In this document: positions 2,425-45,971 of the stretch, piece after piece
How positions within the stretch are numbered: position 1 is the first letter of the stretch
Layout of the letters: every line of letters starts with the position of its first letter
Assembly: GCA_951406725.2 (NCBI GenBank)
Contig: OX597830.1
Span: 53,940,001 to 54,004,000 of the forward strand
Direction: 5' to 3'
DNA from: Octopus vulgaris
Lineage: Eukaryota
DNA: 64,000 bases
Program-made: the position numbers and the translations under genes
The notes under the pieces: model-generated
What the model was told of the DNA's origin: nothing
The model's database searches: none
Seen by the model: the letters and a program-made list of their open reading frames with translations, nothing else

Positions 2425-2464
2425 CCAATCCACGTTGACAAACCCCACCCCTATTCTATATATA
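2425..2464 (+). promoter_or_regulatory. Possible core promoter for exon 1a (CCAAT plus TATA-like box)
   Basis: CCAAT at 2425-2429 and TATATATA at 2457-2464, about 150 nt upstream of the ATG. These are short motifs in AT-rich DNA, so support is weak. Confidence 0.25.
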
Positions 2465-2616: not shown

Positions 2617-2771
2617 ATGGACACAGACTGTATGACTTTAACGAGGTTCGTTTTAGCAGAACAGAAAAAATATCCTGATGCGAAAGGAGATCTAACACAG
2701 TTGCTAAATGCCATCCTATCGGCAGTGAAAGCCGTCTCGTCTGCTGTGAGGAAAGCAGGAATACATAAATT
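2617..2771 (+). CDS. FBP1: FBPase alternative first coding exon 1a ([52 protein letters not shown])
   Basis: ATG in acaATGG context; 155 nt; ends TT|GTACGT (phase 2), compatible with exon 2 (TT+A = Leu). Confidence 0.9.
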
Positions 2772-5076
2772 GTACGTAATTATAAATTTTATCTGGTAAC
2801 CCTTAAGTTTTGCTGATTAAAACCTAAAGACAATAAGATCATATTTTAAAAACATACGTTGTTGAAATGTGAAGTGGTTAATATTTTTGATTAAATTATA
2901 TAGATTATTTAAAATAACTTTGTTTATCGAACTATCGAGAAAAACTTTAAAGAAAAGTATCTCTTGTTTTCTTTAGTTTTTTGTTGGTTAAAGAAAACCG
3001 TTTGGATCTTTTCACTTTGACCGGCAGATTTTTAAAATAATTTCTTTGTAAAAGTGAAAAAATCCAACCGTTTTTAGTCATAGGGGACACGAAGTACTTT
3101 TTCTTATATATATTTAACATGCTAAATTTAAGGCTACGGAAATACATTTTCGAGAGTTTTTATTTACTTTCCTTGTTTTATCCAACAGCATCAATCACGT
3201 TAGTTTTATACTGTTAAGACTGTGACTACGCTCTCAAATATTAGTTAGAATGTGACTCGTTATTTTAATATTACCCATGGTATTGATGTATGAGTTTTTT
3301 TCTTCTTTCCTTCCTGTTATGTACTTTTCTCTCGTTCTTATTCATCGAAATAAGGAAGCGTAATTGCCAAGAGGAGTTAAATCGAGCTGCCTTTACAATT
3401 CTGTCCCAAGGGAGAAAAGAAGGAAGACACGTAACATGTCTTTTGAACTTTAATTATAAACTCAATTTTCTGTAAATGTTTTTTTTGTCTGACATTTTCT
3501 GGTTTCTGCGAACCAATGATGATAATAATAATCCTTTCCACTATAGGCACAAAGCCAGAAGGTTTTGTGGGGAGGGGAACAGTCGATAAGGTCGACACTA
3601 GTACGCAACTGGGGTACTACTTGAGAATACTGGTCCCGGTGCGCGCACTCGCGTAGTCGCGCTTCCGCGCTAGCTAGTCGATCCTACAACGACTACCTAG
3701 CAAAATAAATAATTTTTTTACACAAAGTAAATAACACACAAAAACTCAAAGTAAGGATTGACTAGTCATGGCTAGCTGGCGCGAGTACGCGAGTGCGCGC
3801 ACCGGGACCACTGTTCTCAAGTAGTACCCGCAACTGGTACTTAATTTATCGACTCCGAAAGGGTGAAAGGCAAAGTCAACCTCGGTAGACTTTGTACTCA
3901 AAACAGCGGCAGACGAAATACTGCCAAGCATTTCTCCCGGTGTGCTAACGATTCAGCCTTGATGATGATGATGATGATGATAATAACAATAATCATTTTA
4001 TACTATTAGCAAAAATGCTGGAATTTTGGGGGATGGGGTAAGTTGATTATATCGATCTCCAGTGCTTGACTGGTACTTATTTCATCGACCCCGAAATGAT
4101 GAAAAGCAAAGTCGACCTAGACGGAATTGAACTCAGAACACTGAATGACGAAATATCATTTTTTTCCGGCGTACTAACGTATCTTAATAATAATAATGAT
4201 AATAATAATAACAATAATAATAATTAATAGTTGTTTCTAGTTTTGGCATAAGGCTAGAACTTGACCGTTAGTTTATCATTATCCGCCCCGTGAAGATGAA
4301 AGGTGAAGTTCACCTCGGCAGAATTTGAACTTAGAATGTAAAGAACTTCGAAGCATTTTTTTCGATTCTCTAACAATTTTGCAAATCCACCAGCTTCTCG
4401 GCCTGGAATTTTGTGGGAGGGAGCTAGTCCATTACATTGTCCCCACTGTTCAACTGGTACTTATTTCATCGACCCCGAAAGGACGAAAGGGAAAGTCGAC
4501 TTTGACGGAATTTGAACTCAAAACGTAAAAGACAGACGAAATGCTGCTAAACATTTTGTTCGGCGTGCTAAAGATTCTGTCAGCTCGCTACCTTCTTCCA
4601 TCCTCTAACAATTGTTTCTGATTTTGGCAGAAAGTCAGCAATTTTGAAGGTAGGGGAACAAGTTGATGCCATCGATCCTAGTACTTGACAAGTACTTTGA
4701 TTTATCGACCCCGGAGGGATGAATGACTCTGCTGATCTAGGCTGGATTTGAACTCAGAATTAAAGAATCGGAGCAAATATCGCATGAGACCCTGTTCAGA
4801 TTTTTGTTACTATTACTGGCAATGACGTGTTTCTTAGTACCGGATCTTTGGGTATATTTAAGCTACATATTATTTATTTCATCTCCTGGTAGATCAACAC
4901 AGTTGATATCTCTTACTTGCATTGTCGTCTTCATTTACCGACTTAAAAGAATATTTTTGGATACAAACACTGCGTTGACACCTTGAGCAAGTGTCATCTA
5001 CTGTAGCATCGGGCCGACCAAAGTCTTGTGAGAGGATTTGGTAGACAGAAACTGAAAGAAGCCCGTCGTAAATATA

Positions 5077-5114
<38 letters not shown>

Positions 5115-8100
5115 ATTTTAATCCAAACGGGAAAACAAAAAAACAACAACAATGGAACAATTACAGTATTATTATTAATAGGCGCTCAGGAAATGGAAGC
5201 AGGAAATATATATATGTGTGTGTATGTGTCTGTCGCCCCCCCCAACATCGCTTGACAACCGATGCTGGTGTGTTTACGTCCCCGTAACATAGCGGTTCGG
5301 CAAAAGGGACAGATAGAAGGTGCTACTTGAGAACAGTGGTCCCGGTGCGCGCACTCGCGTACTCGCGCATCCGCGCTAACTAGTCATGACTAGTCGATCC
5401 TTAATTTGTGTTTTTGTTATATTTACTTTGCTTAACAAAAATTATGTACTTTGTGTAAAAAAAAATTATTTATTTTGTGTTTTATTTACTTTGCTAGGTA
5501 GTCGTTGTAGGATCGGCTGGTCACGACTAGCTAGCGCGGATGCGCGACTACGCGAGTGCGCACACCGGGACCACTGTTCTCAAGTAGTACCCAGATAGAA
5601 TAAGTACTAGGCTTACAAAGAATAAATCCTGGGGTCGATTTGCTCGACTAAAGGCGGTGCTCCAGCATGGCCACAGTCAAATGACTGAAACAAGTAAAAG
5701 AGTAAAGAGTAAACGTGCCCACGTTATTATCGTTTAGCGTTAGACCAACCCTGGTCGAACAACCCTACAATCTAAAGCACTGGTCCTCAACCATTTTTTA
5801 AACCCCTGGACTCATTTGATTCCCGTTTTACTTTTACTGAATCCCCATAACCATTTAATATTTAAAAAATCCAATTAAAATTTTATAACTACATATTATT
5901 TTGAATTGTATAAAAAAATGCTAAAATGTTGTCTTGAAGTATAACCAAATTATTGCACAAAAATTTTAACAACAATATCCCCAAGGGTCATGTGGACCCC
6001 AGTTGAGAACCACTGGTCTAAGGCATTCCAACCGTGGCTATCGAAAGATCGCGCGATTCCATATTTTCTTTAAGATTTACAGCATGTAAAGGACTTCGTT
6101 GTCTTAAGACAGTAAGGCGTGATCTGAAGGAAATTTGGCTGCTATTTTTAGCATGTCGAACTAACACGAAGCGGCTTCTCGTTGGCTCATCTCACACATA
6201 TATATTCACACGCAGCCCCCCCCCCCCCCACCGCGCACGCACACACACACACACACACACACACATTATTGTTGTTGTTAAGCATCAGGACAACCCTGAC
6301 CGAGCAACCCTATGGTCTAAAGCATTCCAGCCATGGCCATCAAAAGCTTGCTCGATCCCGTCTTTCCTTTAAGAGTACAGTATGTAAGCGCTTCATTGTC
6401 TTAAGACAGCAAGGTGTTGTCTGAAGAAGATTTGGCTGCTATATCTAGCATGTCGAGCGAACACGAAGCGACTTTTCGATGGTTCATCACACACACACAC
6501 ACACACGCTCGCGCACATTGATTGTATCTTTTAGCTGTTAAATCAAGCCTTCCAAGACCTGCGTGGCTGCTGTGGTAACTTCTTAACTGTGGTGTCATAG
6601 AAAATTGGGATTTTGGATTTACGTTTGCTAAAAATACATTTGTTGATATTCTCAGATATGTTTCGATACATACCAGTTGGCCACATCTCACTCACGATAC
6701 AAGAAAGTGTAGGGTTGGTCGCTTGGCAAGCTAGAAATGGTAACCTAGCCTTCCTCGAATCAAACCTGTCCGTTTTGGGGTAGCACGCTTAATTTTTTCC
6801 CCAGTTTAAAGCTGCTGCCACCACTACCACCTGGTCCTTTTGAAGGCATTCAGGTAAGGTCTGCGATCAAAGGGTGACATCCTCTTCCAATCCACCAAGC
6901 AGTCTCGTAGCCCATAAAAAGGGTCATCAATGCTGCCCTTCCTTCTCTGGTTAAATCACTGAGCAAAATACACAGGCGGGTAACATACGGTAGATAATGT
7001 AGTCCTAGATGCTCCCCAGAGGACGTAAAGGCTACGGATGAGATTATTTTGATCATAGGTCTGCTTGATCATAGTTTACCTGGGGTTATATCGAACCACA
7101 AGAGATCCTCTAAACCAGTGGTTCTCAACCATTTTTTCCCCTATGAACCCCTTTGATTCCGATTTTACTCGGGTGGACCCCCCGTAATCATTCGATGTTT
7201 AAGAAATCCTGTTATATTTTTATAATTAAATATTAGGAATTATATAAAGAATTGTTTAAATATTTTGTGCAGTGGCTGTGTGCTTACAAACCACATGGTT
7301 CCGGGTTAAGGCCCACTACGTGGCACCTTGAGCAAGTGTCTTCTACAATAGCCTCGGGCCGACCAAAGCCTTGTGAGTGAATTTGGTAGAGGGAAACTGA
7401 AAGAAGCCTGTCGTATACATATATACATACATACATACATACATACATACATGTGTGTGTGTATGCTTGTGTGTCTGTGTGTCCCCCCAACATCGCTTGA
7501 CAACCGATGCTGGTGTGTTTACGTCCCTGTAACTTAGCGGTTCGGCAAAAGAGACCGATAGAATTAGTACTAGGCTTACAAAAAAAAGTATTAGGGTCGA
7601 TTTGCTCGACTAAAGGCGGTGATCCAGCATGACCACAGTCACATGACTGAAACAAGTAAAAGAGTAAACGAGTAATGTAGACGTATAACTAATTTATTGC
7701 ACATAAAGTTTAACAACAAAATTGGTTAAAGCTTACAAGTTGATCCGGAAACGAAAATCAGCTAAAAATAGTGCCAAAGGTGTAAAAAAATATGTGTAGG
7801 AAATGAATACGAAGAAAAAAAAAAATGCGCGCAAAGCGACGGGAGGGTGGGGAGAGGACCGCGGAAAATTCACAAGATCCGAGCTTTTCCCTCATAACTT
7901 TTAGGAAAATGGCTTTTTTTCAATTTTTATTTTTGCTTGGGGTGTTCTTGCTTTTATAACTATCCAGAAGGATAGACATATCATTGAGAACAATAGATTT
8001 AATTGGTGGTCTTGTTATCTCTATTCTAGCTTTTGATGAAGTAGGAGAGGTCAGAAAGTGTCAAGTGGTGAAGACATTATTTCGGCCTAGCTAAAGGCAG

Positions 8101-9634
8101 CTGGAAAATGTAAAACTGCTGTCAGAGAAAAAATCATTGTTCCACCGTGGGAAAAGTTATGTTCCAATGTTAATTTAAATTTGGCTATGGTGGATCGAAT
8201 CCACTTCATGCTTGCAAGATCCACTACACACCCATATGCGTAACATATCCCTTCTATCGACCGTAGATCGATGAAGGATGAATCAAACCGAATAATAATT
8301 GTTGTTATTGGTGTTGATGTTGTTTTTAGCCCGAGGTTCTCTTAAACGAGAAGACTCTATGATCAAAAGCAATCCAGTGGTGATCATTTTCTATATTTTT
8401 CAAAAAATTATAAGAGTCAGTGTCTAACAGCTAACTATTCCTACCTTGATGCTTTATTGTTTAGCCCCAGGTCAGCTCTTATGATTTAAAGCATTCCAAC
8501 CATGCCCTTCCAGTCAATTTCCCAGGCACAGCACTCCTAGGACCACAGCAACCAATGTTAACTCAGAGGCGTTCCAACAGTGATTAAACAATCTTTTTCT
8601 ATACTCTCTTTTATTCTTTTACTTGTTTCAGTCATTTGATTGCGGCCATGCTGGAGCACCGCCTTTAGTCGAGCAAATTGACCCCAGGACTTATTCTTTG
8701 TAAGCCTATTACTTATTCTATCGGGCTCTTTTGCCGAACCGCTAAGTTACGGGGACGTAAACACACCAGCATTGGTTGTCAAGCGATGTTGGGAGGACAA
8801 ACACAGACACACAAACATATATACACACACCTACATATATATATATATGCATATATACGACGGGCTTCTTTACATTCCGTCTACCAAATCCACTCACAAG
8901 GCTTTGGTCAGCCCGAGGCTATAGTAGAAGACACTTGCCCAAGGTGCCACGTAGTGGGCCTTAACCCGAACCATGTGGTTGGTAAGCACTCCTGCGCCTA
9001 GCTACTTACCACACAGCCTCTCCCACGCCTATATCTAACATTTAGATTCTTCAGTGTATTCATTTTTTTTTTCTGTTAAGACCAAAGGGTGTTATTTCTA
9101 GCAGACCAAGCGACCACTAGATATCTTTTATCGTTGTCTCGTGTTCTAATTCTTAATCGCTGTAACATAGCAGCATATTTTATAAATGTGAAGGAACTAT
9201 ATATAACATGGTTTTATATATATTGCACTATAGTAATTCCTTGACTATCGCGGGTGTTACCTTCCAAAACACCTCTCGATAGGTGAAAACCCGCGAAGTA
9301 GAAACAGTACTGTACTGTATATTTTTTGCTATTATTTTTATAATTTATATATATTTAATTTATTATAAATGCAAAACAACACCATGGAGGAATCGACGTA
9401 AGCTTAAATAATAAACCGCGATAGGTGAACCGTGATGTGGCGAGGGACTACTGTATTATGAATATATGTGTATATATTATATACATACAGATGTGTTATA
9501 TATATAACGGCTAATGTCAACGATCAGTATCTAACGTCAGTGACTACAGTTGGTTGGTTAGTCGCTCCGTGAATTCTTCCGATGGGTATTTCCATGTACT
9601 CTTTGCTAGGCGGTAAGAATTGTCTGGAGTATAT

Positions 9635-9667
<33 letters not shown>

Positions 9668-12600
9668 GAGTATAGAGATTTGTACATCCACAGAATTTAT
9701 TTTGTAGTTATATACAACATAATGGCCTACACGTGTTTCCGTTGCAGCGACTACTCACTGTTGCAAATGCAACCTTGCAATATTGTCGGTACAGCTTCAT
9801 CAGGGTCCGTCCATTTGGTCATCCTCGAAGTGAACTGATTGAAGTAAAATTTTGCTAGTGAATGTTCTGTGGGGAGGGGGTATTGTTATTTAGGTATTAT
9901 TTGATTCTTTCAAACGCACGATTTTCACTAAGAACCCCACCCCCAAGACTCGGATTTTTTGCGTGGAATCAAGTACCCTGACCTACAAATATGCTGCAAA
10001 CTATTTTTGTTCGGAAAAAGGGAGTGGGTGGGAATCAGACCCCCCCCCCCCCCATATCCTGGAATCATTAGAAATTAAAGATTTTTTTTTTCCGTTGAAT
10101 GAATTCCCGTGACCTCCTAATATGCTACCAAACCCTTTTTGGGTCTGGAAAACGAGGTGGAGCAAGGTGGAAGCCTCGGAAGTTATTTATAAATATGTGC
10201 TGTTGACCTCAGCTTCACCTCAGTCAACTTTTTCAATTAGAGGCCGAAAACAATAGCTATTTTATCGATTGGGAACAAATAAGTACTGCTAAGCCTTATC
10301 GAGTAGGGGGAAACAGATGCGACGGATGCGTAGAAGAACCTTATCAAATCTTTACATCAAAACACATTAATTAATACGAGACACGAACAATCACTGATAT
10401 GTTTACACGAACGCCCCAGCAACAATTGAGGTTGATATAACAAAGAGAATAAGCATAAAAATATTTAATAACTATAGGCGTAGGGATGGCTGTGTGGTAA
10501 GTAGCTTGTTTACGAACCACATGGTGGCACCTTGGGCAAGTGTCTTTTACTATAGCCTCGGGTGGACCAAAGCCTTGTGAGTGGATTTGGTAGACGGAAA
10601 CTGAAAGAAGCCCGTCGTATATATGTATATATATATATATATATATATGTAATTGTGTGTGTGTATATGTTTGTGTGTCTGTGTTTGTCCCCCCCCCCAA
10701 CATCGCTTGACAATCGATGCTGGTGTGTTTACGTCACCGTAACTTAGCGGTTCGGCAAAAGCGACCGATAGAATAAGTACTAGGCTTACAAAGAATAAGT
10801 CCTGGGGTCGATTTGTTCGACTAAAGGCGGTGCTCCAGCATGGCCACAGTCAAATGACTGAAACTAGTAAAATAGTAGGATCATTAATAAAAACAAACAA
10901 AACAAATGCCCTGTCCAATGTGTAGCACAAATCATGAGCAGCCCAACCCCAAAATGAATCTAAACAAACACGAACCCTTCAACATAAGCACTACACTCGA
11001 AATCAAAAACATAACACACACAGCCGTTAAAAGAAACAAAGAGCTTTACAAAAGCAATTATCTCGACTTTGATATATTTTAGAGCATGTTCTGACTTCGG
11101 ATTGCGACGGGGGTGAAGTTGAGGTCAATAGCACATACTTATGAATAACAATATCCCAGCCTCCAACAAACAATAACTAGCAAAAATTTGCATCAATCGG
11201 TTCAATTCGCGGATGACCAAATGAACGGACCCTGATGAAGCTGCACCGACAATATTGCAAAGTTGCATTTGCAACAGTGAGTAGTCGCTGCATCAGGTCA
11301 TTATAATATGCTGAATATAACTATAAAATACATTTTGTGTATGTACAAGTCTCCATACTCTTTATTATATATAATACTAGCAGTATCGCCCGGCGTTGCT
11401 CGGGTTTGTAAGGGAAATAACTATATAAGCAGTTACTTCCCTTATATAATAGCAAAAAATGCATTAAAAATGGGAAAAAAATTATGGTAAATTTTTTAAT
11501 CGTAGACTCATCGTAGACGCGCGCTAATACCCAGAAGGGCTCGATATGAATCACAACTATAAGATACCCGGTTTTGGTTAAATTGCACCGCAAAATGTGG
11601 GAGTAGTTAGGAATCTAAATCGTAGGAGACAGACACACAACTTCACTTTTATATATAAAGATATATATAATTTAGGGCGGCGAACTGGCAAAAACGTTAG
11701 CGCGCCGGGCGAAATGCTTAGCGGTATTTCGTCTGTCGTTACGTTCTGAGTTCAAATTCCGCCGAGGTTGACTTTGCCTTTCATCCTTTCGGGATCGATA
11801 AATCAAGTAATCGACTTAATCCGTTTGTCTGTCCTTGTTTGTCCCCTCTGTGTTTAGTCCCTTGTGGGCAGTAAAGAAATATATATATATACTGACACAC
11901 AAACCTGCGGAGTTGTCACACAATCATAAGACAAACATGTCAAATTTATCCTATTTCGCCTTAGATTTATCAAATGATAAACAACCTTACTCGATTTTCT
12001 ACCCTCATCAGAGAATCGGTAGCCAATGCGTCTATATCAAGTGTTGTAGTTCCCGAGAACTGGACCTACTTATTTGCGTATTATAAGTATTTAGTACCTT
12101 ATTTAATATCAGAGTTTTGTCGGCATATTTCTCGATGTGAAGCTATAAACTAGGTTATATAGAATAGTCTTTTAATCAGTGATAACAGACAAGAAAACAT
12201 GTGAGAATGGAGGAGCACATTGTTATTGCTTCATATGAGGTCACCCTCATATGATGTCACACTCATATGATGTCAGTAAGATCAAATATGGTATTGCAGC
12301 CTTTACCAATTCGTCTTTTGTATTGAGATGTATTGTATATCGGAATTTGTGTTGCTGTATGAAAATTTCATACAAAAATATCCATATTTCTGGAAGTTGC
12401 GAGGCAACAAATTTGGTGATGGGGTGCATATGTGGACGCATGCTACGTATCTAATATGTCGCCCTTGTCTTTATTTAAGATAGTAAGGTATAATTTAATG
12501 AAAATTTGATGTTGTGTCTAGTAAAAAGCTAACGGCCACGCGAGAGTCTTCTTCAATGTCAGCCGTTTAAAGTGGTTTGATACCTTTAGTTTAAGATTTC

Positions 12601-15600
12601 TTATCGACATTCGTCAGCCAGACGTTCTCACAAGTTTACAAACAGATAAACACATTAACTGATTGGCTACTCTCATAAATATTCCAGGCAGCACACGTTA
12701 TTTAGTCATTACTAACATATTTAATGTCGTGGTCTAAGAAATGTTAATTAATTGAAATTAACGCTCGTAGTAACGAAGAGAAAGAATAATAAAGTTAATG
12801 ATTCTGGTCACTACTGGGTATCAAAGAGAGAAACAGCCAACTCTGGCATTTTAATTAAAATGACGTCTCCGATTAGGACAATCGCTCTAGCGATTCCATT
12901 TGTGACCAATTGTGCCTCTTTTTAAGGATCTGAAAGACTACATTAGATTCATCTCCTCCACTTTTTCAAGATATTAGGGTGTAATTTGAGAAAGATTTAG
13001 CTGTTATTTTTAGTATAAGGCTCCTTCACTGTGCCTATCAGGTTAATAGAGGTCAATAATATCATATTTCACGTTATCAGAAAAGCATATCTTTTTATCA
13101 GAAGATTCTAAATTTGTTGTCGTTGTTGTTATTGTTGCTGTAGTTGAGATACTGCTGCTGTTATAGTGGATATTTAAAGCAAATTATGCTGAATTTTTAC
13201 TGTATTTTACGTTTTTAGATAATTTTTCTCATATTGTTTTTTTCAAATTTTTACATTAAATGCTTTTTCTTACTTTTTTCATCCCCACTCTCACCTCCCA
13301 CTCTTACGCCACTAACTCTCTCTCACCACCACGACTACCACCTCTCACCCATTCTCTCTTACTCCACCCTATTTCACCCACCATCACTTACCTTTCTTTC
13401 ATGCCCACTCTCTTATCTCATTCTCCCACCCCACTCACGCTGACCCTACTGTCTCTCCCACACTCTCTTTATCTCATCCTCATCCTCTCTCGCCCCACTC
13501 TATCACTCTACCCTCTCTCACTCACACTCTCATTCTCACCCTTCTGTCCCTGCTCCTATTTTAAAAATACCATTAAATCTTACATATGCAATACAAGGAG
13601 TTGAAAAAACTTCGATCAACTGAGATTATCCAAGCCATTAATAAACACAACCTCCCTATTGTGGTGTTTAAAATCTAAACTCCAGTAAGGAAGATAACTC
13701 CAATCAGCTCAGTTGATTGAATTGTTGATCAATATAAAACAATGTAGATTCTTTTATCTTTTACTTGTTTCAGTCATTAGACTGCGGCCATGCTGGGGCA
13801 CCGCCTTGTAGAATTTATCGACCCCAGTACTTATTGTTTTTTTTAAAGCCTGGTACTTATTCTATCGTCATATTTTGTCGAATCGCTAAGTTACGGGGGC
13901 GTAAACACACCAACACCGGTCGTCAAGCGGCGGTGGGGGACAAATACACGCACACACACACACATGATGGGCTTCTTTCAGTTTCCATCTACTCACAAGG
14001 CTTTGATCAGCTCAAGGCTTTAGTAGAAGACACTTGTCCAATGTGCCACGCAGTAGGACTGAACCCGGAACCGTGTGGTTGGAAGGCAAACCTCCTACCA
14101 CACAGGAAAGATCTAGAGAAATCTCGGTCATGTTTCGGCTTTATTAGACCTCATTATATTCTCTACTCAGTTGATAACATTGACAAGTGTTTATCTTATT
14201 ACTTGCTGGAGGAAGGGACAGTGCCCATGGCCTTCGTAACCCCCTCCCCTGACACTGATGAACTTGCTGCTGCTAATATTTCTCTCCAACCATTAGTAGA
14301 TACCCGTAGAGAAGAAGTTCCAGATGAATGCTGTTCAGGAAAGGAAGGACAAGACATACTGGTTACTGTGGGGCCTGGCGAGTGGGTGGGGGAGTTCGGA
14401 TACATCAAGGGCGATGTGACAAAGAGAGACGCTGGAACAGAAATACCTGAGCAGATGTGACATAATCGTAGCTAGTTCCGAGGAGCAGAGACCATTATAG
14501 CAGTAGTAGAAAGAACAGAGGGAGGAAACAGTGTACTTATGGGGCCAGGGGTGGGAATATGTCTGTAAGTGATTTTGTGCCATTTAGTCGGGTGGCCATT
14601 TTTTAATGTGCTTTACTCTTCACACAAAAATTTTATCGCTCGGATTTTCTGGATTTTCAGTTACACGAACACTTTACATTACACTACGCTGTACTTGATT
14701 ACTACGTGAACTGATAGCCAAGTCCGTAGGAGGAGCATACTGTGGTAGTCGCATGATTTTCTGAATCCATATTTTACACTACTCATGTATGTATGTGTGT
14801 GTGTGTGTGTGTGTGTGTTTCGGCCAGCTAAATCATCATCGGACAGTCCGACAATGGCTTAGCTGGCCGAAACTTCGAAGTCACTATCAACAACACAAGT
14901 TCACTTGATAATCCCAAGAAACTAACGAGATTAATCCCTAGCAGTTTACCAGGTGAACCATATTACACGTTACAATTCCAAGGGAGACGATCGTTGCGAT
15001 CCCGTGATAACTGGTCCATGAAGATCGTCTCCCTTGCAAATTGCTTCACGTATTTATATGTATCATGTCAGTCCACACACACACACACACACATCTTGAT
15101 TAACGAACTAATTTGTTTTTACTCTGGTCTCAGAAATTTCGCTATCTGATGATAGACGATTTTTATGCAGATAAATACTTTGTGAGTACTGAAATATAAA
15201 CTAATATAAAATACAGTAGGCCTACAATGCTCCTATATCGAAAAATAAATTCTATATATTGAAAAACAACCATTGAATAAAATTATATATAATTCAATCA
15301 GAAAATAAATAAAGCGGGGCAGGCTTGGCTGTGTGGTAATGAAGCTCGTTTTGCAATTACAAGGTTTCCGGTTCATTCCCATTTCACGGTACCTTGGGCT
15401 AATGTTTTGTGTCTCCTGGCTGACCCATACCTCCTGCATAAACTTAGACGGAAACTGTGTAGAGAACCGTTGTGTGTGTGTGCAGTTCAGCCTAAGACAT
15501 CGATAGAATAAGTGCTAGGCTTACAAAGAATAAGTCTTGGGGTCGATTTGTTCGACTAAAACCCTTCAAACAAATAAAAGAATACATAGGAGTGGCTGTG

Positions 15601-15746
15601 TGGTAAGTAGCTTGCTAAACAACCACATGGTTCCGGGTTCAGTCCCACTGCGTGGCATCTTGGGCAAGTGTCTTCTGCTATAGCCCCGGGCCGACCAATT
15701 GCCTTGTGAGTGGATTTGGTAGACGGAAACTGAAAGAAGCCTGTCG

Positions 15747-15777
<31 letters not shown>

Positions 15778-18700
15778 TTGTCCCCCTAGCATTGCTTGAC
15801 AACCGATGCTGGTGTGTTTACGTCCCCGTAACTTAGCGGTTCGGCAAAAGGGACTGATAGAATAAGTACTGGGCTTACAAAGAATAAGTCCCGGGGTCGA
15901 TTTGCTCGACTAAAGGCGGTGCTCCAGCATGGCCGCAGTCAAATGACTGAAACAAGTAAAAGAGTAAAAAGAGAGAGATATAAAATATGCTTCGACACAC
16001 GCAGGATCTTTTCACTTTGACCAGGATCTTTCTGCCGGTCAAAGTGAAAAGATCCAAAGGGAGATAGCCACTGAAGTTATTATCAAAAAAAAAAAAAAAA
16101 ATCATTTTGTTTTTTAACGATATCGTGGTTTATGTTGTACATTTTTATCTTCTATTACTCACTGATTGTTTCTAGAGTTCACGTCACTATTTGTCATATA
16201 TACACCTTAAAATTGACAATAAACCAGGAAATATTAGACGTGGTCACTTATGCTAGGAGTGACAGATCCTGGTAGTTAGGGTTTCAATTAACAAAAGAAA
16301 AAAAAATGGGATTGGTTGGTACAGACTGTTCATAATCCTTTTGAGGAAAAGCTGCAGTTAACAGGTTGGGGGAAGACGGAATGATAAACAACAAGGCGGA
16401 TAGTATTGATATCGGTGTATAGGTTCGATCCCACCTCTTAATAGATTGGACTCGTCTTCTACCGCCAAATAACTGGATCAAGGGGGATTCAACATAAACA
16501 ACACCGGTTTTAGACATGTGTAAACATTGACTCAGTCGTGCGCACACACACACACATTCACACGCACGCGCACACACACACACAGAGTGGACAGAGTCGT
16601 TAGAGCGCCTGATAGATTGCTTTGCGGTGAGTTCAAATCTCGCCGGGGTCAATTTTGCCTTCCATTCTTTTAAGGATTAACAAATAAAGTACGAGTCATT
16701 TACTGGGGTATCTTGCTTCTCTTTTCCTTTCCGTCTGTCTTTCTGTCTTCTAGAAGAAATCGGCTGATGTCAGACCTGTAGAGGAATGGGCTCCTTAAGA
16801 TCAAAAATCACTCAAGACATACGATATGTCATCTTGGCGTCTCTGATTCCATCCAGGAATCGAAGGCAAAAATATATAAATACGACAGCCTTTTGCATAG
16901 TTTCCGTCTCCAAAATTCGTCCCACAAGGGTATGTCTATTACCCATGGTGCCAAGATGTTGACGGAAGCAGAGACGGCAATTCAATAATCATGAAAATAA
17001 CTCCTGCTATTTCTTCACCCCGCGAGTCACATACATCCTTCTTGTTACTATCGCTGGATCCCCGTCGGTTTCGACGATGACGACCTACTTGTGCGATCCA
17101 CTGAATTACCTGCACGTGAATCAACGTGTATGTGGTTGAGTATTCCGTAGACACAAAAAAAAAACATAAAGTAAATTTCTGACAGAATCAGCGTGACAGT
17201 GTGATATATGACAAGGCTGTACTTTTTGAATTACAGACACAAATCACCCAACCGACTGCTATATACTTCCCGTCTACTCAATTCATTCACAAAGTATGAA
17301 TCGATCCGTGATTTTTCAAAAATGATACTTGTTCAAGAAACCATGCAGTGGTATCGAACCTGGCCCTCGTGGTTGTGAAGCGATCTTCTTAACCTTTTCA
17401 ATATACTGCACCTATAATCACAAAATGCATATTGAAATAGAAGTGGAGGAAAAAACGCCAACAACTTTGAAAGATATTTATTATTGTAATGTGAACAATA
17501 TTCTAATGGAAGATATATATTACAGAAATAGCTGGAAAGTTGTTTAGCGGCTGTCAGTGAAGGTGAAGGTCGTTTGTTGTTTGTCAAAATAAAGGTCGTC
17601 CTGTGACCAGTTGAATCTAAGTGAAGGTCGTTAAACTATCCAAACTTTTCTTGTTCATAACAACAATCACTCCGTTTCATTTATGTTACATTTCTCTCCT
17701 CCCACTCTTCATGTCATCTTGTACTTTTACTTTTCGCCCTCTCCTACTTTCGCATTCACTCCCTCATCTCTCTATTTTTAACGCTTCTCCCCTCTCTCTC
17801 CCTCTTCTTCTTCTTCTCTCTCTCCTCCTCGTCATCTCGTCCTTTCTGTCTTCCTCTCTCTGTCTCTTTCAGTCTTTATTCTTCACCACTCTCTCATTAT
17901 CTTACTGTCTCACTTCAATCTGTCTGTCTCTTCCTCTAGTCCTCGCGTCATTCGCACCCCTCCACATCTCCCTCTTTTCGATCACACTTCTCCCGCTCTC
18001 TCTCTCTCTCTCACTTCCATTTCTCCTCCTCTTTAACACACACACACACACTTACACATATAAATTCGCACGTATACACCACATCTGTCTTCTGAGTCCA
18101 GGCACCATGGAGACTGACTACATGACCTTGACACGTTTCTTACTCAACGAAGAGAAGAAACATCCTCAGGCAACGGGAGTTTTAACCCAGTTAATCAATT
18201 CGATTCTTACATCAATCAAGGCCATTTCTGCTGCTGTTCGCAGAGCGGGTCTTCGAGATTTGTAAGTTTATTTTTCATTTCAAAAAGTTCTTAAAACTAT
18301 CCATACATACACATACACTATATATATTTACACACACCACGCGCATAGATATGTATGTATGCATGCATGCATGCATGCATGCATGTATGTATGTATGTAT
18401 GTATGTATGTATGTATGTATGTATGCACGCGCACACACGTACACACACACTAAAAGTGTTTTCTTTAGACGCAGGAAAAAATGGGTTACTGGCTGGTGAA
18501 ATCGTTAGAGTTGAGACAAAAGGTTTAAGGTGTTTAGTTACAGCTGCTCTTCAAGGACAGAGTTCAAATCTGGCCGATGTCAGCTTCGGAGTTCATTCTT
18601 CATGGGTCGGGGAAATAAAGTTCTGTGGTCAACTTAGATGTGAATAGAAGACTAAAGTACGTTTTGCTAGGGAGATTTGGCTGTTATTTCTAAAAGGACG

Positions 18701-24205: not shown

Positions 24206-27200
24206 GACAGCAAGCTGGCAGAATCATAAGCATGCTGGGGAAAATGCTTAGCAGCATTTTATCTATCCTTACGTTCTGAGTTCAAATTCTGCTGAGGTTG
24301 ACTTTGCCTTTCATCCTTTTGGGGTTGACAATTATGCACCAGTGAAACACTGGGGTCAATGTAATCAACTAGTCCCCTCCCCCAAAATTTCAGGTCTTGT
24401 GCCTTTAGTAAAAAGAATTATAAGTACCAGTTAAGATTGATTTAATCAGTTGTCTCCTTTCCTGCAGTTTTCTGCCCTTCTACTATGTTAAAAATTATTA
24501 CAGCTATGGTGGTTGTGATGATGATGTTTAACCCCAGGTCAGCCCTAAATTGAGCAAGCAGACATTCCAGCCATGACCAATCTCATCTTTTCCTTATGTA
24601 GTAAGAATCAAGGGTCACTTTCTCCAACATGTCCATTTAAGTAAGTAGGGTGTAATTTGAAGGCACTTGGCTGCTATTCCTTTCAGTTCATATCACCATA
24701 TAGATACATACTTGTTGGCTTGTGGTAATTGGTAGAATCAGAGTTGCAAAGAAAATACCTTGTGTTGTTTAGTTCCTAGTTCTAAGTTCAAATCCTGTAG
24801 AGGTTGAACCTAATACTGAAAGGAAAATGTTACAGAATGGAAATGATTGAAAGGAGAAGAAAATAGAATTTTTTCCTTTACATATTTCAAAATGAATGTC
24901 AACAAAGTTAGCACAATTCTTGTTATGTCATGTTTTGGAACTGGTTGACTGATGCAACTTCATGATGTACAGTGGTTGTACAGGAAGTTAAAAGTGAAAC
25001 TGGACTTGATATTTGCCATAAGTTTTGATGAAGAAACAGTAAATTTGCTGAATTTGTACCACATTACACTAAACAACATTGCTTAACCAATGACATGTTC
25101 ATAAAAATGTGATATAAAATAAGATACTGCTCTGGGAAAGGCTTAACTGCCATCACTTCCTGCTTAACTTTCCCTAAAATAGTGAGTTAGTTGATACAAA
25201 ATAAGCTGAAACAAAATTGTAGTTAATGATGTTTTGTTTGTTTCTGATAATTTCTAGGGGAAATATATCGTCTGCTTTGATCCTTTGGATGGTTCTTCAA
25301 ATATTGACTGTCTGGTTTCTATAGGATCCATTTTTGGAATTTATCGAAAGGTGAGTTACTTCTACAGTTATCCTCAAACATATACTGCATATCTTTATCT
25401 GTCTGTATATATATGTGCATGTGTGTATATCTCCTTATATTGACCTACCAGCCACCTAGTCACCTACCGATCGGGTCGACATACCAGCCAAATTGACTAC
25501 ATCCTTGCCAGGAAAAGGGAAAGATGGCTGCTTATAAATGCCAAAACCTTCCCAGGCGAAGAATGTACCCCACAACATAGACTGGTAGTTAGTGACTTTA
25601 GGATCAGGACTAAGAGGACGACCAGAAGATGACCAACATGGAGAAGAATGATCTGGAAGCTTAAAGATCCTGCAAATGGACAGAGATTTAGAGACATATT
25701 ACTTGAAGCATTTGACGAAGTAGAAGGGGATATAGCTTCACATGGGGTAGAAGACAACTGGAGGATTCTAAGGGACAACCTCCTGAGAGCCACTGACCAG
25801 ATCTGTGGCTGGTGCAAAGTCCCCTCTCGACCTAAAATAACGTGGTGGTGGAACAATGCTGTAGACAGGGCTATTAGAGAAAAGAGACAGGCTTGGAAGG
25901 ACTGGAAAAATGGGGTAGCAGGGAATTGTATCAGACTGCCAAAAGAGAAGCTAGGAGACAGGTTTATTTAGCCAGAGGGGAAGCAGATAAGAAAAAATTT
26001 GCCAATGTTCTGCGCCGTGAGGACCAAAGACTTGAGGTATTCTGAGTTGCAAGACAGTGTGTGAGAGAGATTTGTGATGTGGTAGGAGAGAAATGTGTTC
26101 GCATGGATGATGGTTCACTTGCGCTAAATGAGGATGCAAAGAGAGAGATTTGAAGACGCCACTATGAAAGGTTGCTGAATGAAGAAAATGAATGGGATAA
26201 AGAGAGTCTGCTGAATGTCGACCCAACAGAGGGACCAGCTATCCGAGTTGACAGTTCCTTGGTAATTAAGGCAATTAGAAGCATGAAGACAGGGAAAGCC
26301 CCAGGCCCATCAGGAATTACTGCAGAGATGCTCAAAATATCTGGTAGTGTCGGCTATAGCCTAGTCACCCGTATAGTTAACCAGGTGATACACGAAGGAG
26401 TCATACCCAGTGACTGGTGTAGCAGCATAATAGTCAACTGCTACAAAGGTAAAGGTGACGCCCTAGATACAAATAATTACAGAGGTATCAAGCTGTTGGA
26501 TCAGGTAATGAAAGTTACGGAGAGGGTCATAGCCAAACTAATTAGAGAGAGAGTTAGTTTAGATGAGATGCAGTTTGGGTTCGTGCCAGGGAAAAGCACC
26601 ACTGATGCCATATTCCTGGTAAGACAGCTGCAGGAGAAATATCTAGCCAAAGATAAGCCCCTGTACCTAGCTTTCGTTGGCATGAAGAAAGCCTTCGACA
26701 GGGTCCCCCGATCCCTTATCTGGTGGTCAATGAGGAAACTAGGGATAGATGAATGGTTAGTGAGAGCTGTGCAAGCCATGTACAGGGACGCTGCTAGTAA
26801 GGTGAGGGTTGGCAATGAGTACAGTGAAAAATTCCAGGTAGAGGTAGGGGTCCAAAGTCCTAATAAGTAGGAAGGTAGACAAGTCACAAACGCCTTCAGG
26901 TAGATGGCCTTGCTCGATCTGTAGGAAAGGCGTAGGTAGAAACTCTATAAGATGCACCAAGTGTAAGCTATGGACACACAAGAGGTGTAGCAACATCAAG
27001 GGAAGGCTAACTAGGAAGATAGTTTTTGTATGTGGCAGATGCTCAGGAACAATAAACACTGAAAATGCGCAGAGACCAACTTCCGCCACATTCCAGGGAG
27101 AAAAACTAGAAATAGTTGATAGCTTCCGTTTCCTAGGTGACCAAGTCAGTAGCGGGGGCGGGTGTGTTGAAAGTGTAACTGCTAGAGTAAGAATAGCTTG

Positions 27201-30200
27201 GGCAAAGTTCAGAGAGCTCTTACCTCTGCTAGGGACAAAAGGCCTCTCGCTCAGAGTAAAAGGCAGACTGTATGATGCATGTGTATGAACAGCCATGCTA
27301 CATGGCAGTGAAACATGGGCTGTGACTGCTGAGGATATGCGTAAGCTCGCAAGAAATGAAGCCAGTATGCTCCGATGGATGTGTAATGTCAGTGTTCATA
27401 CTCGACAGAGTGTAAGTACCTTGAGAGAGAAGTTGGACCTAAGAAGCATCAGTTGCAGTGTGCAAGAGAGACGTTTGCGCTGGTATGGCCAATGTGGCGA
27501 GAATGGATGAAGATAGTTGTGTGAAAAAGTGCCACACCCTAGCTGTTGAGGGAACCTGTGGAAGAGGCAGACCCAGGAAAACCTGGGATGAGGTGGTGAA
27601 GTACGACCTTTGAACTTTAGGTCTCACCGAGGAAATGACTAGAGACCGAGCCCTTTGGAAGTATGCTGTGCGTGAGAAGACCCGGCAGGACAAGTGAGAC
27701 CATAACCCATGGCCTCAGTCCACTTATGCATACCTTTCCTTCTTGGGACACAAAACTCTACTTGTGAAGACCTGTTGAGGCAAGTGAAAATCAAAAAATC
27801 AAAAATCAAAATCGATCAACATGAATGGAAATTGTAGCTGTGATACCAATGCCGGTGGCATATAAGACAACCATCCAAACGTGGCCGTTGCCAGCGCCGC
27901 CCTGACTGGCTTCTGTGCCGGTGGCACGTAAAAAGCACCATCTGATCATGGCCGTTGCCAGCCTCGCCTGGCCTCTGTGCTGGTGGCACGTAAAAAGCAC
28001 CATCCGATCCATGGCTGTTTGCCAGCCTCGCCTGGCACCTGTGCCGGTGGCACGTAAAAAGCACCCACTACACTCATGGAGTGGTTGGCGTTAGGAAGGG
28101 CATCCAGTCGTAGAAACATTGCCAGATCAGACTGGGCCTGGTGCAGCCTTCTGGCTTCCCAGACCCCGGTCGAACCGTCCAACCCATGCCAGCATGGAAA
28201 GCGGACGCTAAACGATGATGATGATGATGATTGACATGTGGGATAGTAGCAGTGTCATTTATTTCGATAAATTTGCCCCCCACCAAAAAAGGTCACCATT
28301 ATAACTGGTGATGGTGTGTTTACATCCCTCTAACTTAGCAGTTTGACTCATATAACCAATGGAATAAGTACCTGACTTAGAAAAAATATAATTACTGGGG
28401 TTGATTCAATTGAAATTCTTCAAGGCAGTGCCCCTGCATGGTTGCAGTCTAATGTATATGTTATACATAACAGTTATATGGATGAGACGTAAACAAGAGA
28501 CTATGGCACTACAACCAGCCAGGAACAGTCTTCGCTACATTTGCGGTACCTGCCAGAGGGAGTGTTTGTCCAGGATAGGACTACACAGCCACAGTAGGAA
28601 ATGTATCAGGACATGAAATATAAAAGCCGGACTAGACTACAACAACCCCCCCCCCCCCCAAAAAAAAAACATGTGCAACTCCATTGTCTCCCGAGACAGA
28701 AAGGATGCCAATACAATACAAAAATATGGATGAAGAGAGCTTGCGTATGGATAAGGAGAGCTGCATCAAGAAGTGCTGATTTCTAATTGAAGAGAGAACA
28801 TGTGGAAGGGTAGACCTTGGGTCAGTGAAATAAATACCATTCAGGTGCTAGGTGTCAATTTAGATCCCTGTACACTTAGCAACTTAAATTTGAGGACTTG
28901 TGCCAATGTTAGAGACCATGGTGGTGAGCTGGCAGAATTGTTAGAGAATTTGGAAAAAAATACCTCGTGGTATTTATTCCAGCTCTTTATATTCTGAGTT
29001 CAAATTCTGCCAAGGTCATTTGCTTTTCATCAAATAAAGCACCAGGCAAGTACTGGATCAATGGTATTGATTAACCCCTCTTCTGAAAATGGCTGGCCTT
29101 GTGCCAAGATTAGGAACTATTTTATGAATGGATGATTTAATAAATAATAAATAATGAATCTAATTAGTTAATTAATTCCCTTAATTGTCTTTTTCATCCA
29201 GTTGTCTTCAGGCCCTGCTACTGAGAATGATGCCCTGCAACCTGGCCGAGACTTGGTTGCCGCTGGATATGCCCTTTATGGCAGTGCTACTATGGTTGTG
29301 CTATCCACTGGTCAAGAGGTGAATGGATTCATGCTGGACCCTGTAAGTTTTATTTTTTTGTTTTGTATTTTATTCCCTTTGAGGCTCTTCAAACATCATG
29401 GGCACTGTACTTTCTTTGATGAGTTTATCCTCTTCTTCCAGAGCCTCTTCTTCCAGAGCCTCTTCTCCCAGAGCCTCTCCTTCCAGAGCCTCTTCTCCCA
29501 GTGCCTCTTCTTCCAGAGCCTCTTCTTCCAGAGCTTCTTCTCCCAGAGCCTCTTCTTCCAGAGCCTCTTCTTCCAGAGCCTCTTCTCCCAGAGCCTCTTC
29601 TCCCAGAGCCTCTTCTCCCAGAGCCTCTTCTCCCAGATCCTCTTCTCCCAGAGCCTTTTCTCCCAGAGCCTCTTCTCCCAGAGCCTCTTCTCCCAGAGCC
29701 TCTTCTCCAAGAGCCTCTTCTCCCAGAGCCTCTTCTCCCAGAGCCTCTTCTCCCAGAGCCTCTTCTCCCAGAGCCTCTTCTCCCAGAGCCTCTCCTTCCA
29801 GAGCCACTTCTTCCAGAACCTCTTCTCCCACAGCCTCTTCTCTCAGAGCCTCTTCTCTCAGAGCCTCTTCTCCCAGAGCCCCTTCTCCCAGGGCCTCTTC
29901 TCCCAGAGCCTCTTCTCCCAGAGCCTCTTCTCCCAGAGCCTCTACTCCCGGAACCTCTTCTTCCAGAACCTCTTCTTCCAAACTAAAACAAAAAAAAAAA
30001 ATAACAAAACAAAACAAAAAAAAACAAAAACAAGCAAACAAAGCTAGCCTTTTGATGTTTCAGTTTCCTGTGAATTAACTTTGTTTCGTGTTTTGGCAGT
30101 CAATTGGAGAATTTCTCCTAACTGAAAAGAATATGAAAATTAAGCCACGAGGAAAAATCTATTCCCTCAATGAAGGTTATGCTCAGTATTGGGACAAGGC

Positions 30201-30929
30201 TACCACAGAGTATATAAAGAACAAGAAGCATCCTAAGGTAAGGCTTTTGCCATTTTGCTACTCTTCAAAGCATGAACCATTACAAGGTGTAACACGATAT
30301 TTGTCCTTGGGTTGCAACTGTTTGCTTACCCCGAGAAAATAAGAAAAATGGCTAATATTTCCTTCAGACTTTGCTTTTATTATTTAAATGAAAAAGAATC
30401 CTTCTCAGCACATGGCTATGATGCTCTAACATTAATCCTGCTCATGATCAGAGATGCACATATTGTCGGCCACTAAGGGACATGCTCTAGTGGTTAAGGT
30501 CAAGCAACTGACAAGCAAATCTGTGGTACTGAGCAGAATATTTGCTATAACGGTATTTCTATTTCAGCATCTCAGCACTGAATCTGTGTGAAATGTAATG
30601 GAAAATAGGTCAGTTTCAAAACATTGATGCCCAGGTCACAAAAGCAAAGTCTGAAGGGAATAGTAGTCATTTCCTTTAACTTCTAGACAGAAGCAAATAG
30701 GAAATAACACTTGTTGACCAAAGACAAAAAAAAAAAGAAGTTTTGTTACACAGTGCATAAGAGTGGCTGTGTATTAAGTAGCTTGCTTACGAACCACATG
30801 GTTCCGGGTTCAGTCCCACTGTGTGGAACCTTGGGCAAGTGTCTTCTATTATAGCCTCGGGCCGACCAAAGCCTTGTGAGTGGATTTGGTAGACAGAAAC
30901 TGCAAGAAGCCCAACGTATATGTATGTAT

Positions 30930-34023: not shown

Positions 34024-34029
34024 AATAAA
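34024..34029 (+). terminator. Putative polyadenylation signal of the FBPase gene
   Basis: AATAAA about 140 nt after the stop codon, followed by T/GT-rich sequence. Confidence 0.5.

Positions 34030-35299: not shown

Positions 35300-45971
<10,672 letters not shown>

What the first reader, a model, noticed from the sequence alone, without database searches (positions are those of the whole stretch)
2617..18261. One FBPase gene with two duplicated, alternative first coding exons: isozymes by exon swapping
Seen: exon 1a (2617-2771) and exon 1b (18107-18261) are both exactly 155 nt. Both start with an ATG in good context, end in TT|GT (phase 2) and align without gaps at 32/52 identical residues, with mostly conservative changes. 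I found no second copy of exons 2-7 between them, so both must share one catalytic core. Established: this segment encodes helices H1/H2 and the hinge of FBPase, which form much of the AMP allosteric site and tetramer interface. Vertebrates obtain liver and muscle isozymes with different AMP sensitivity from separate genes (FBP1/FBP2). Inference: this lineage may reach the same result convergently by duplicating only the regulatory exon, possibly with tissue-specific promoters and mixed heterotetramers. I am not aware of this having been described, but I could not search.
Basis: partly seen in the sequence, partly recalled or inferred. Interest (0 to 1): 0.85.

Follow-up and report, generated by a model that had tools for sequence, protein, structure and literature searches.

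The report
FBPase with two swappable first exons
The octopus gene for the glucose-making enzyme FBPase carries two old copies of its first exon, both kept in cuttlefish too, so one gene encodes two versions that likely differ in how the energy signal AMP switches them off.

Summary
Observation confirmed. Exons 1a and 1b are 155 nt, phase 2, 32/52 identical, with saturated synonymous sites. Each joins exons 2-7 in a 999-nt frame, and the genome shows one catalytic core. Both products are already database isoforms (Octopus vulgaris, O. bimaculoides X1/X2, Sepia pharaonis); my paper searches found no description. Octopus and cuttlefish 1b form one clade (100/98), so the duplication likely predates their ~275 My split. 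1b is the derived copy: seven fixed changes, at AMP-loop residue 29 and residues 40-55 (end of helix 2, start of the catalytic loop). The same design (identical core, different exon 1) occurs in Lingula and Centruroides scorpions; independent or shared origin is unresolved. The vertebrate liver/muscle determinants are not used: E20 is in both exons, and E69, T177 and Q179 are in shared exons. Different AMP response, tissue use, separate promoters and mixed tetramers remain untested; no reads were laid. Verdict: real, old, annotated but undescribed in my searches; a new variant of isozyme-by-exon-duplication.

The parts
2617..2771 (+). Coding exon 1a: 155 nt, ATG to phase-2 donor; ancestral-like copy; helices H1, H2 and start of the catalytic loop; Lys at mammalian position 27
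   Evidence: product identical to P0007
18107..18261 (+). Coding exon 1b: 155 nt, ATG to phase-2 donor; derived copy; Val29, Ser40, Ala46, Arg50, Leu53, Arg54, Asp55 in mammalian numbering
   Evidence: product identical to P0004
22943..23105 (+). Shared exon 2 (163 nt); rest of loop 52-72 including Glu69
25258..25350 (+). Shared exon 3 (93 nt); Lys112, Tyr113 and the FDPLDGS stretch
29202..29342 (+). Shared exon 4 (141 nt); STGQ at 176-179
30100..30237 (+). Shared exon 5 (138 nt)
32263..32379 (+). Shared exon 6 (117 nt)
33692..33883 (+). Shared exon 7, coding part to the stop (192 nt)
2457..2463 (+). TATA-like motif 160 nt before the 1a ATG (candidate only)
   Evidence: motif match, no chance control, function not shown
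18059..18065 (+). TATAAAT 48 nt before the 1b ATG (candidate 1b promoter)
   Evidence: motif match, no chance control, function not shown
34024..34029 (+). First AATAAA after the stop (candidate polyadenylation signal)
   Evidence: motif match only

Best explanation
The single FBPase gene carries two tandem-duplicated first coding exons, each of which makes an open frame with the same six downstream exons, and it likely yields two isozymes with one catalytic core and different allosteric control, 1b predicted to be the less AMP-inhibited. Shown: anatomy, single core, open frames, conservation of both exons, and 1b being the derived copy. Inferred: the duplication fell in the coleoid ancestor; each exon has its own start site, so promoter choice picks the exon; 1b changed quickly after duplication and was then held by selection. 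Predicted: loss of the acid at 29 and the changes at 46-55 weaken coupling between AMP binding and release of catalytic loop 52-72, letting the enzyme run where AMP is high, in a restricted tissue or state. Mixed tetramers would form where both are made. My odds: functional two-exon gene 0.95; differing allosteric behaviour 0.6; given that, 1b the less inhibited 0.6.
For: Two 999-nt frames identical to P0007/P0004. One core in the genome. Pairs with 273/273 identical cores and 57-75% identical exon 1 occur in O. vulgaris, O. bimaculoides, two cuttlefish-type sets, Lingula and two Centruroides species. The cuttlefish-type proteins P0126 (1a) and P0130/P0132 (1b) are whole frames on contigs of 1.4-2.0 kb, which I infer are spliced transcripts. 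Both exons are 49/51 identical between the two Octopus species, against 258/273 for the core; octopus versus cuttlefish 1b is 39-41/51. Between 1a and 1b, pS is 0.76 (saturated) and pN 0.25. The 1b clade has support 100/98 and a 0.26 stem. Seven positions are fixed between 6 1a rows and 4 1b rows; Val/Ile29 occurs in 0 of 150 background rows and Ser40 in 1 of 150. All four 1b rows exceed all 150 background rows in weighted deviation. AMP contacts 17, 27, 29, 30 and 31 lie in this exon (PMC3785478, PMC4822563 passages); octopus 1a and 1b differ at 17, 27 and 29. A54L raised the AMP I50 50-fold in the pig enzyme, and AMP acts through loop 52-72 (PMC3795747). The second exons of cephalopods, scorpions and Lingula all leave the consensus at 50 and 53 (P about 0.013, threshold chosen afterwards).
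Against: No kinetics, tissue data or laid reads. Both forms keep the three residues said to be required for AMP inhibition (Thr/Ser31, Lys112, Tyr113; PMC5639204 citing Gao), so any difference is probably one of degree. Glu29 binds AMP through its main chain only, whereas Thr27 binds through its side chain, and it is 1a that lost Thr27 (Lys in 5 of 6 1a rows, 0 of 150 background). The direction could therefore be the reverse. Leu53 of 1b is also the state in the muscle-type half of P0011, and the muscle enzyme is the more AMP-sensitive one. The overall overlap of deviating sites among the three second exons is not above chance (5 sites, P 0.21). AU tests do not reject separate duplications in octopus and cuttlefish (p 0.056-0.061, log-likelihood 24-28 lower). 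The O. vulgaris models may come from this same assembly (equal contig length), so they are not independent.
Confidence: 0.55

Rival explanations
1. The second exon is kept for its promoter (another tissue, stage or feeding state); the protein differences are largely tolerated drift from an early relaxed phase and the kinetics are similar.
For: TATA-like motifs precede both exons. Among cuttlefish-type Logan proteins of one cluster, 1a forms were seen on 76 contigs and 1b forms on 2, hinting at narrow or low use of 1b; assembly bias is possible. The core AMP ligands are retained in both.
Against: A new promoter needs only a non-coding exon. The seven 1b changes hit conserved sites and are shared by octopus and cuttlefish.
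Confidence: 0.2
2. The exons differ mainly in partner binding, location or stability (aldolase or sarcomere binding, tetramer form) rather than in AMP response.
For: In mammals the N-terminal region contributes to Ca2+ sensitivity, and a cited title links it to aldolase binding (PMC3795747 passages). Residues 8-18 set the muscle enzyme's tetramer form (PMC4822563). Cuttlefish 1a keeps a five-residue N-terminal extension that 1b lacks.
Against: Octopus 1a lost the extension too. Residues 11 and 13 are the same in both exons. The fixed differences lie at 29 and 40-55, not at the N-terminus.
Confidence: 0.15
3. Architecture variant: 1a and 1b are internal mutually exclusive exons behind a shared or separate non-coding exon, chosen by splicing as in pyruvate kinase M. 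This is compatible with the best explanation's protein-level claim.
For: A CAG lies 5 nt before the 1b ATG, and T-rich AG sites precede 1a at 2515-2516 and 2555-2556. Joining 1a to the 1b AG would shift the frame.
Against: The 1b AG has a poor tract (T 0.32 against 0.50-0.64 at the six true acceptors) and another AG just upstream, and TATAAAT sits 48 nt before the ATG.
Confidence: 0.15
4. 1b is a dead exon, or the first exon of a second FBPase gene whose body was lost or collapsed in the assembly.
For: No junction reads were laid in this species; genome searches score best candidates only.
Against: Intact, conserved 1b occurs in at least four cephalopod sequence sets, each with a core identical to its own 1a form at 273/273. 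There are no Ns in the window and one core in the genome.
Confidence: 0.03

Closest known systems
Vertebrate FBP1 (liver) / FBP2 (muscle) isozymes
   Same: Same class I enzyme (PDB matches to E 1e-151); two forms that differ in the AMP-site segment.
   Different: Separate genes, 77% identical (PMC3785478). Their AMP and Ca2+ differences rest on 20, 177, 179 and 69. Here both forms have liver-type Glu20 and share muscle-type STGQ 176-179 and Glu69, and they differ at 27, 29 and 40-55 instead.
Pyruvate kinase M exons 9/10 and ketohexokinase exons 3A/3C (recalled, not read)
   Same: Tandem exon duplicates give isozymes of a sugar-metabolism enzyme from one gene; in PKM the swapped exon sets allosteric control.
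   Different: Those are internal exons chosen by splicing; here the duplicate is the first coding exon, probably chosen by promoter. Kinetic difference is proven there and untested here.
UGT1A and clustered protocadherin loci (recalled, not read)
   Same: Homologous alternative first exons spliced to shared constant exons.
   Different: Many variable exons that set substrate or recognition specificity; here two exons covering a regulatory segment.
Annotated FBPase isoform pairs of Lingula anatina (X1/X3) and Centruroides (X1/X2)
   Same: Identical core, differences confined to the exon-1 segment, changes at 50 and 53.
   Different: Their genomic layout was not seen here. They fall elsewhere in the exon tree, but common origin is not rejected (AU p 0.15-0.38). 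Lingula's second form is not unusually deviant (44 of 150 background rows as deviant).

Membership tests
Class I fructose-1,6-bisphosphatase | PF00316 N-terminal and PF18913 C-terminal domains in one frame | tested here: met
   PDB matches to E 1e-151; model of the 1b form has pLDDT 84.9, helices 8-17 and 25-46, low-confidence loop 48-67
AMP-inhibited FBPase | Ser/Thr31, Lys/Arg112, Tyr113 (PMC5639204 citing Gao 2014) | tested here: met
   present in both isoforms
AMP-inhibited FBPase | measured AMP inhibition | not testable with these tools
   needs an enzyme assay
Tandem-duplicated alternative first exons on shared constant exons (UGT1A type) | homologous exons in tandem, same length and phase | tested here: met
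Tandem-duplicated alternative first exons on shared constant exons (UGT1A type) | a single set of downstream exons | tested here: met
Tandem-duplicated alternative first exons on shared constant exons (UGT1A type) | each exon spliced to the shared exon 2 in transcripts | tested here: inconclusive
   both forms exist as annotated proteins and as whole frames on short cuttlefish-type contigs; no junction reads laid for this species
Tandem-duplicated alternative first exons on shared constant exons (UGT1A type) | own promoter for each exon | tested here: inconclusive
   TATA-like motifs only
Internal mutually exclusive exons (PKM type) | splice acceptor before each alternative exon | tested here: inconclusive
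   weak before 1b, plausible before 1a
Vertebrate liver/muscle FBPase pair | two separate genes | tested here: not met
   one core
Vertebrate liver/muscle FBPase pair | isoforms differ at residues 20, 69, 177, 179 | tested here: not met
   Glu20 in both exons; the rest lie in shared exons

The most novel reading that the evidence does not exclude
Protostomes have repeatedly made a second, differently regulated FBPase by duplicating only the allosteric exon: coleoid cephalopods, an old arthropod line kept in scorpions, and a brachiopod, with parallel changes at hinge residues 50 and 53. In cephalopods the 275-My-old 1b exon encodes an AMP-desensitised subunit that is switched on by tissue and can tune mixed tetramers.
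Probability: 0.3. Interest if true: 0.8.

Novelty: new variant of a known kind. Interest (0 to 1): 0.55.

Why it matters
The two proteins are a natural experiment in allostery: the same catalytic core with two regulatory segments that have both been kept since about the octopus-cuttlefish split, and 1b carries residues not seen in 150 other invertebrate exon-1 rows. Reports disagree on whether cephalopods make glucose in several tissues or only in the digestive gland (PMC5473251 passage). Two junctions that can be counted in existing RNA data, and two proteins that can be assayed, make that question directly testable. If the Lingula and scorpion cases are independent, exon-level duplication is a recurring route to FBPase isozymes in animals.

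Tried and rejected
Expression: the run search with exon 1b gave 'no RNA holder listed', which is no evidence either way. No reads were laid, so junction counts, start sites and tissue use are open. The supplements of PMC9699675 (3 files searched, file 2 not searched) had no FBPase entry. The search for longer homologues with the 1b peptide was insensitive (1 hit among 38 candidates). Origin of the second exons: AU tests rejected none of seven groupings (p 0.056-0.40); 51 columns are too few. dN/dS across species could not be computed (no DNA of relatives); between 1a and 1b dS is saturated. Flanks of 1a and 1b show no similarity beyond chance (best E 0.069). Other isoform pairs checked and not exon-1 swaps: Liolophura, Lineus, Tubulanus, Mizuhopecten (small inserts) and Limulus (longer start); Ischnura and Tachypleus share their N-termini. 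Absence of a second exon in gastropods, bivalves, spiders, ticks, Daphnia and locusts is weak evidence: 21 clusters were opened, at most 15 members each. Nautilus and named squids were not retrieved. No complex prediction was sent, because a 1a/1b pair would pass by likeness to solved tetramers. Prior description: none seen in the listings (open-access library only; 20 of 169 hits listed). Gao 2014 and the mouse knock-in paper were not held. No earlier scan findings matched.
Full report
Observation. Exon 1a (2617-2771) and exon 1b (18107-18261) are each 155 nt, start with ATG and end TT|GT. They agree at 32 of 52 residues and 99 of 155 bases with no gap, and identity is lowest at third codon positions (19/51). 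Exons 2-7 lie at 22943-23105, 25258-25350, 29202-29342, 30100-30237, 32263-32379 and 33692-33883 with AG/GT borders. Either first exon gives a 999-nt frame with one terminal stop, identical to database proteins P0007 and P0004, which their sources name as Octopus vulgaris FBPase. These two may derive from this same assembly (equal contig length), so I do not count them as independent.

One core. PF00316 gave 6 matches in the 2.8-Gb genome, 5 at this locus and one at E 9.6 elsewhere. PF18913 gave 3 of 3 at this locus, and the full protein 8 of 8. Profiles over the window plus 10 kb upstream found two exon-1 copies and one copy of each later exon. The window has no N. The genome searches score best candidates only.

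Already annotated. O. bimaculoides has isoforms X1 (1a) and X2 (1b). Sepia pharaonis has both on a contig of the same length (the 1a model with a damaged start), and O. sinensis has the 1a protein. Unnamed Logan proteins 98-100% identical in the core to S. pharaonis include both types as whole frames on 1.2-2.0 kb contigs, which I infer are spliced transcripts. In that cluster 1a types were seen on 76 contigs and 1b types on 2.

Survey. I aligned 254 proteins, leaving out the two exon peptides and three fused vertebrate models; 242 had both exon 1 and core. Of 208 pairs with cores at least 97% identical, 186 had exon 1 at least 90% identical and 22 had 57-75%. All 22 belong to cephalopods, Lingula anatina or Centruroides. 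In the Centruroides pairs and Lingula X1/X3 the differences stop at the exon-1 boundary. The sample is the top 120 hits of two searches plus 21 opened clusters, so it says little about absence elsewhere.

Age and selection. In a tree of 45 exon-1 peptides (51 columns, LG+G4) octopus and cuttlefish 1b form one clade (100/98) on a 0.26 stem. All ten cephalopod exons group together with weaker support (95/77). The scorpion second exon groups with a Scolopendra and a Limulus sequence (96/62). Octopus and decapodiforms split about 275 Mya (PMC9068888, passages). Constrained trees with separate duplications in octopus or cuttlefish were 24-28 log units worse but not rejected (p 0.056-0.061). A single ancient origin of all second exons was not rejected either (p 0.15-0.38). 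Between the two Octopus species each exon is 49/51 identical, against 258/273 in the core. Octopus to cuttlefish is 40/51 for 1a, 39-41/51 for 1b and 231-234/273 for the core. Between 1a and 1b, pS is 0.76 and pN 0.25. A dead exon would not look like this.

What differs. Numbering follows the alignment to mammalian chains. The model of the 1b form has helices at 8-17 and 25-46 and a low-confidence loop at 48-67, so the exon holds H1, H2 and the first five residues of loop 52-72. Seven positions are fixed between 6 1a rows and 4 1b rows: 29 (Asp to Val/Ile), 40 (Ala to Ser), 46 (Ser/Cys to Ala), 50 (Lys to Arg), 53 (Ile to Leu), 54 (His to Arg/Gln) and 55 (to Asp). Against 150 distinct non-cephalopod rows, Val29 occurs 0 times and Ser40 once. 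1a has its own novelty, Lys27, in 5 of 6 rows and 0 of 150 background. By weighted deviation all four 1b rows exceed all 150 background rows, while octopus 1a is typical (about 80 of 150 as deviant). The three lineages' second exons all deviate at 19, 25, 50, 53 and 55. Five shared sites is not above chance (P 0.21); two at conserved sites gives P about 0.013, with the threshold chosen afterwards.

Mechanism. AMP contacts Val17, Thr27, Glu29, Leu30, Thr31, Lys112 and Tyr113. The side chain of Thr27 and the main chains of 27, 29 and 30 hold the phosphate (PMC3785478 passages and Introduction; PMC4822563 passages). AMP inhibits by stabilising loop 52-72 in its disengaged form (PMC3795747 passages), and A54L raised the I50 50-fold. 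A single change in the same loop makes mouse FBP1 AMP-insensitive (G27P; PMC12096142 passages). That E29Q weakens AMP inhibition and cooperativity in the pig enzyme is recalled, not read. I therefore infer two isozymes with different AMP coupling and predict 1b to be the less inhibited. Against this: both keep Thr/Ser31, Lys112 and Tyr113 (PMC5639204 passages); 1a rather than 1b lost Thr27; and Leu53 is also the muscle-type state. The vertebrate determinants are not the ones swapped: Glu20 is in both exons, and STGQ 176-179 and Glu69 are shared.

How the exon is chosen. TATAAAT lies 48 nt before the 1b ATG and TATATAT 160 nt before the 1a ATG; neither ATG has an upstream ATG within 300 nt. The AG 5 nt before 1b is a poor acceptor, while T-rich AG sites precede 1a. 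Two promoters is the likelier reading, but it is unproven. No reads were laid, so tissue use is open.

Literature. Ten searches ran; six asked about prior description and their listings showed no paper on duplicated first exons of an invertebrate FBPase. The library is open-access only. PMC5473251 (passages) reports FBPase activity in O. vulgaris paralarvae and conflicting views on where cephalopods make glucose. PMC9699675: three supplementary files searched, none matched, one large file not searched. PKM, KHK, UGT1A and protocadherin comparisons are recalled.

Verdict. A real, old, conserved exon duplication whose products are in the databases but, as far as my searches reach, not discussed. 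It works like known isozyme-by-exon systems and is a new variant of them. The regulatory difference is a well-grounded prediction, not a result. Interest 0.55.

Noticed in passing
window 26154-27285 (+), FBPase intron 3: Reverse-transcriptase frame (PF00078, E 1e-11) followed by a PHD finger (PF00628, E 4e-6) in another frame: likely a broken non-LTR retroelement.
   Followed up: no
window 29429-30042, FBPase intron 4: 15-nt minisatellite of about 37 copies followed by an A-rich run; it keeps several frames open.
   Followed up: no
window 45010-45336 (-): Weak cuticlin N-terminal match (PF25057, E 4e-5, under the cut-off): possibly an exon of a neighbouring gene on the other strand.
   Followed up: partly
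Lingula proteins P0019, P0134, P0135, P0136: Besides two exon-1 forms there are two forms of the exon-6 segment (3 residues differ), in all four combinations: a probable second duplicated exon.
   Followed up: partly
Babylonia proteins P0023, P0026: Isoforms X1 and X2 have identical cores and differ at 3 residues of exon 1: a young duplicate exon or alleles.
   Followed up: no
proteins P0015, P0029, P0098: A centipede, a horseshoe crab and the scorpion second exon share an N-F...P-Y-A-T-G-E pattern and group together (96/62), hinting at an old arthropod duplicate.
   Followed up: partly
proteins P0017/P0133, P0028/P0137, P0058/P0140: A chiton and two nemerteans each have an isoform with a 6-10 residue insert at the exon 2/3 boundary, just before Lys112-Tyr113 of the AMP site.
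   Followed up: no
protein P0010: A decapod-type sequence with a 1a-like end but Thr27 and some 1b-like residues; it sits next to the 1b clade in the tree (85/86).
   Followed up: no
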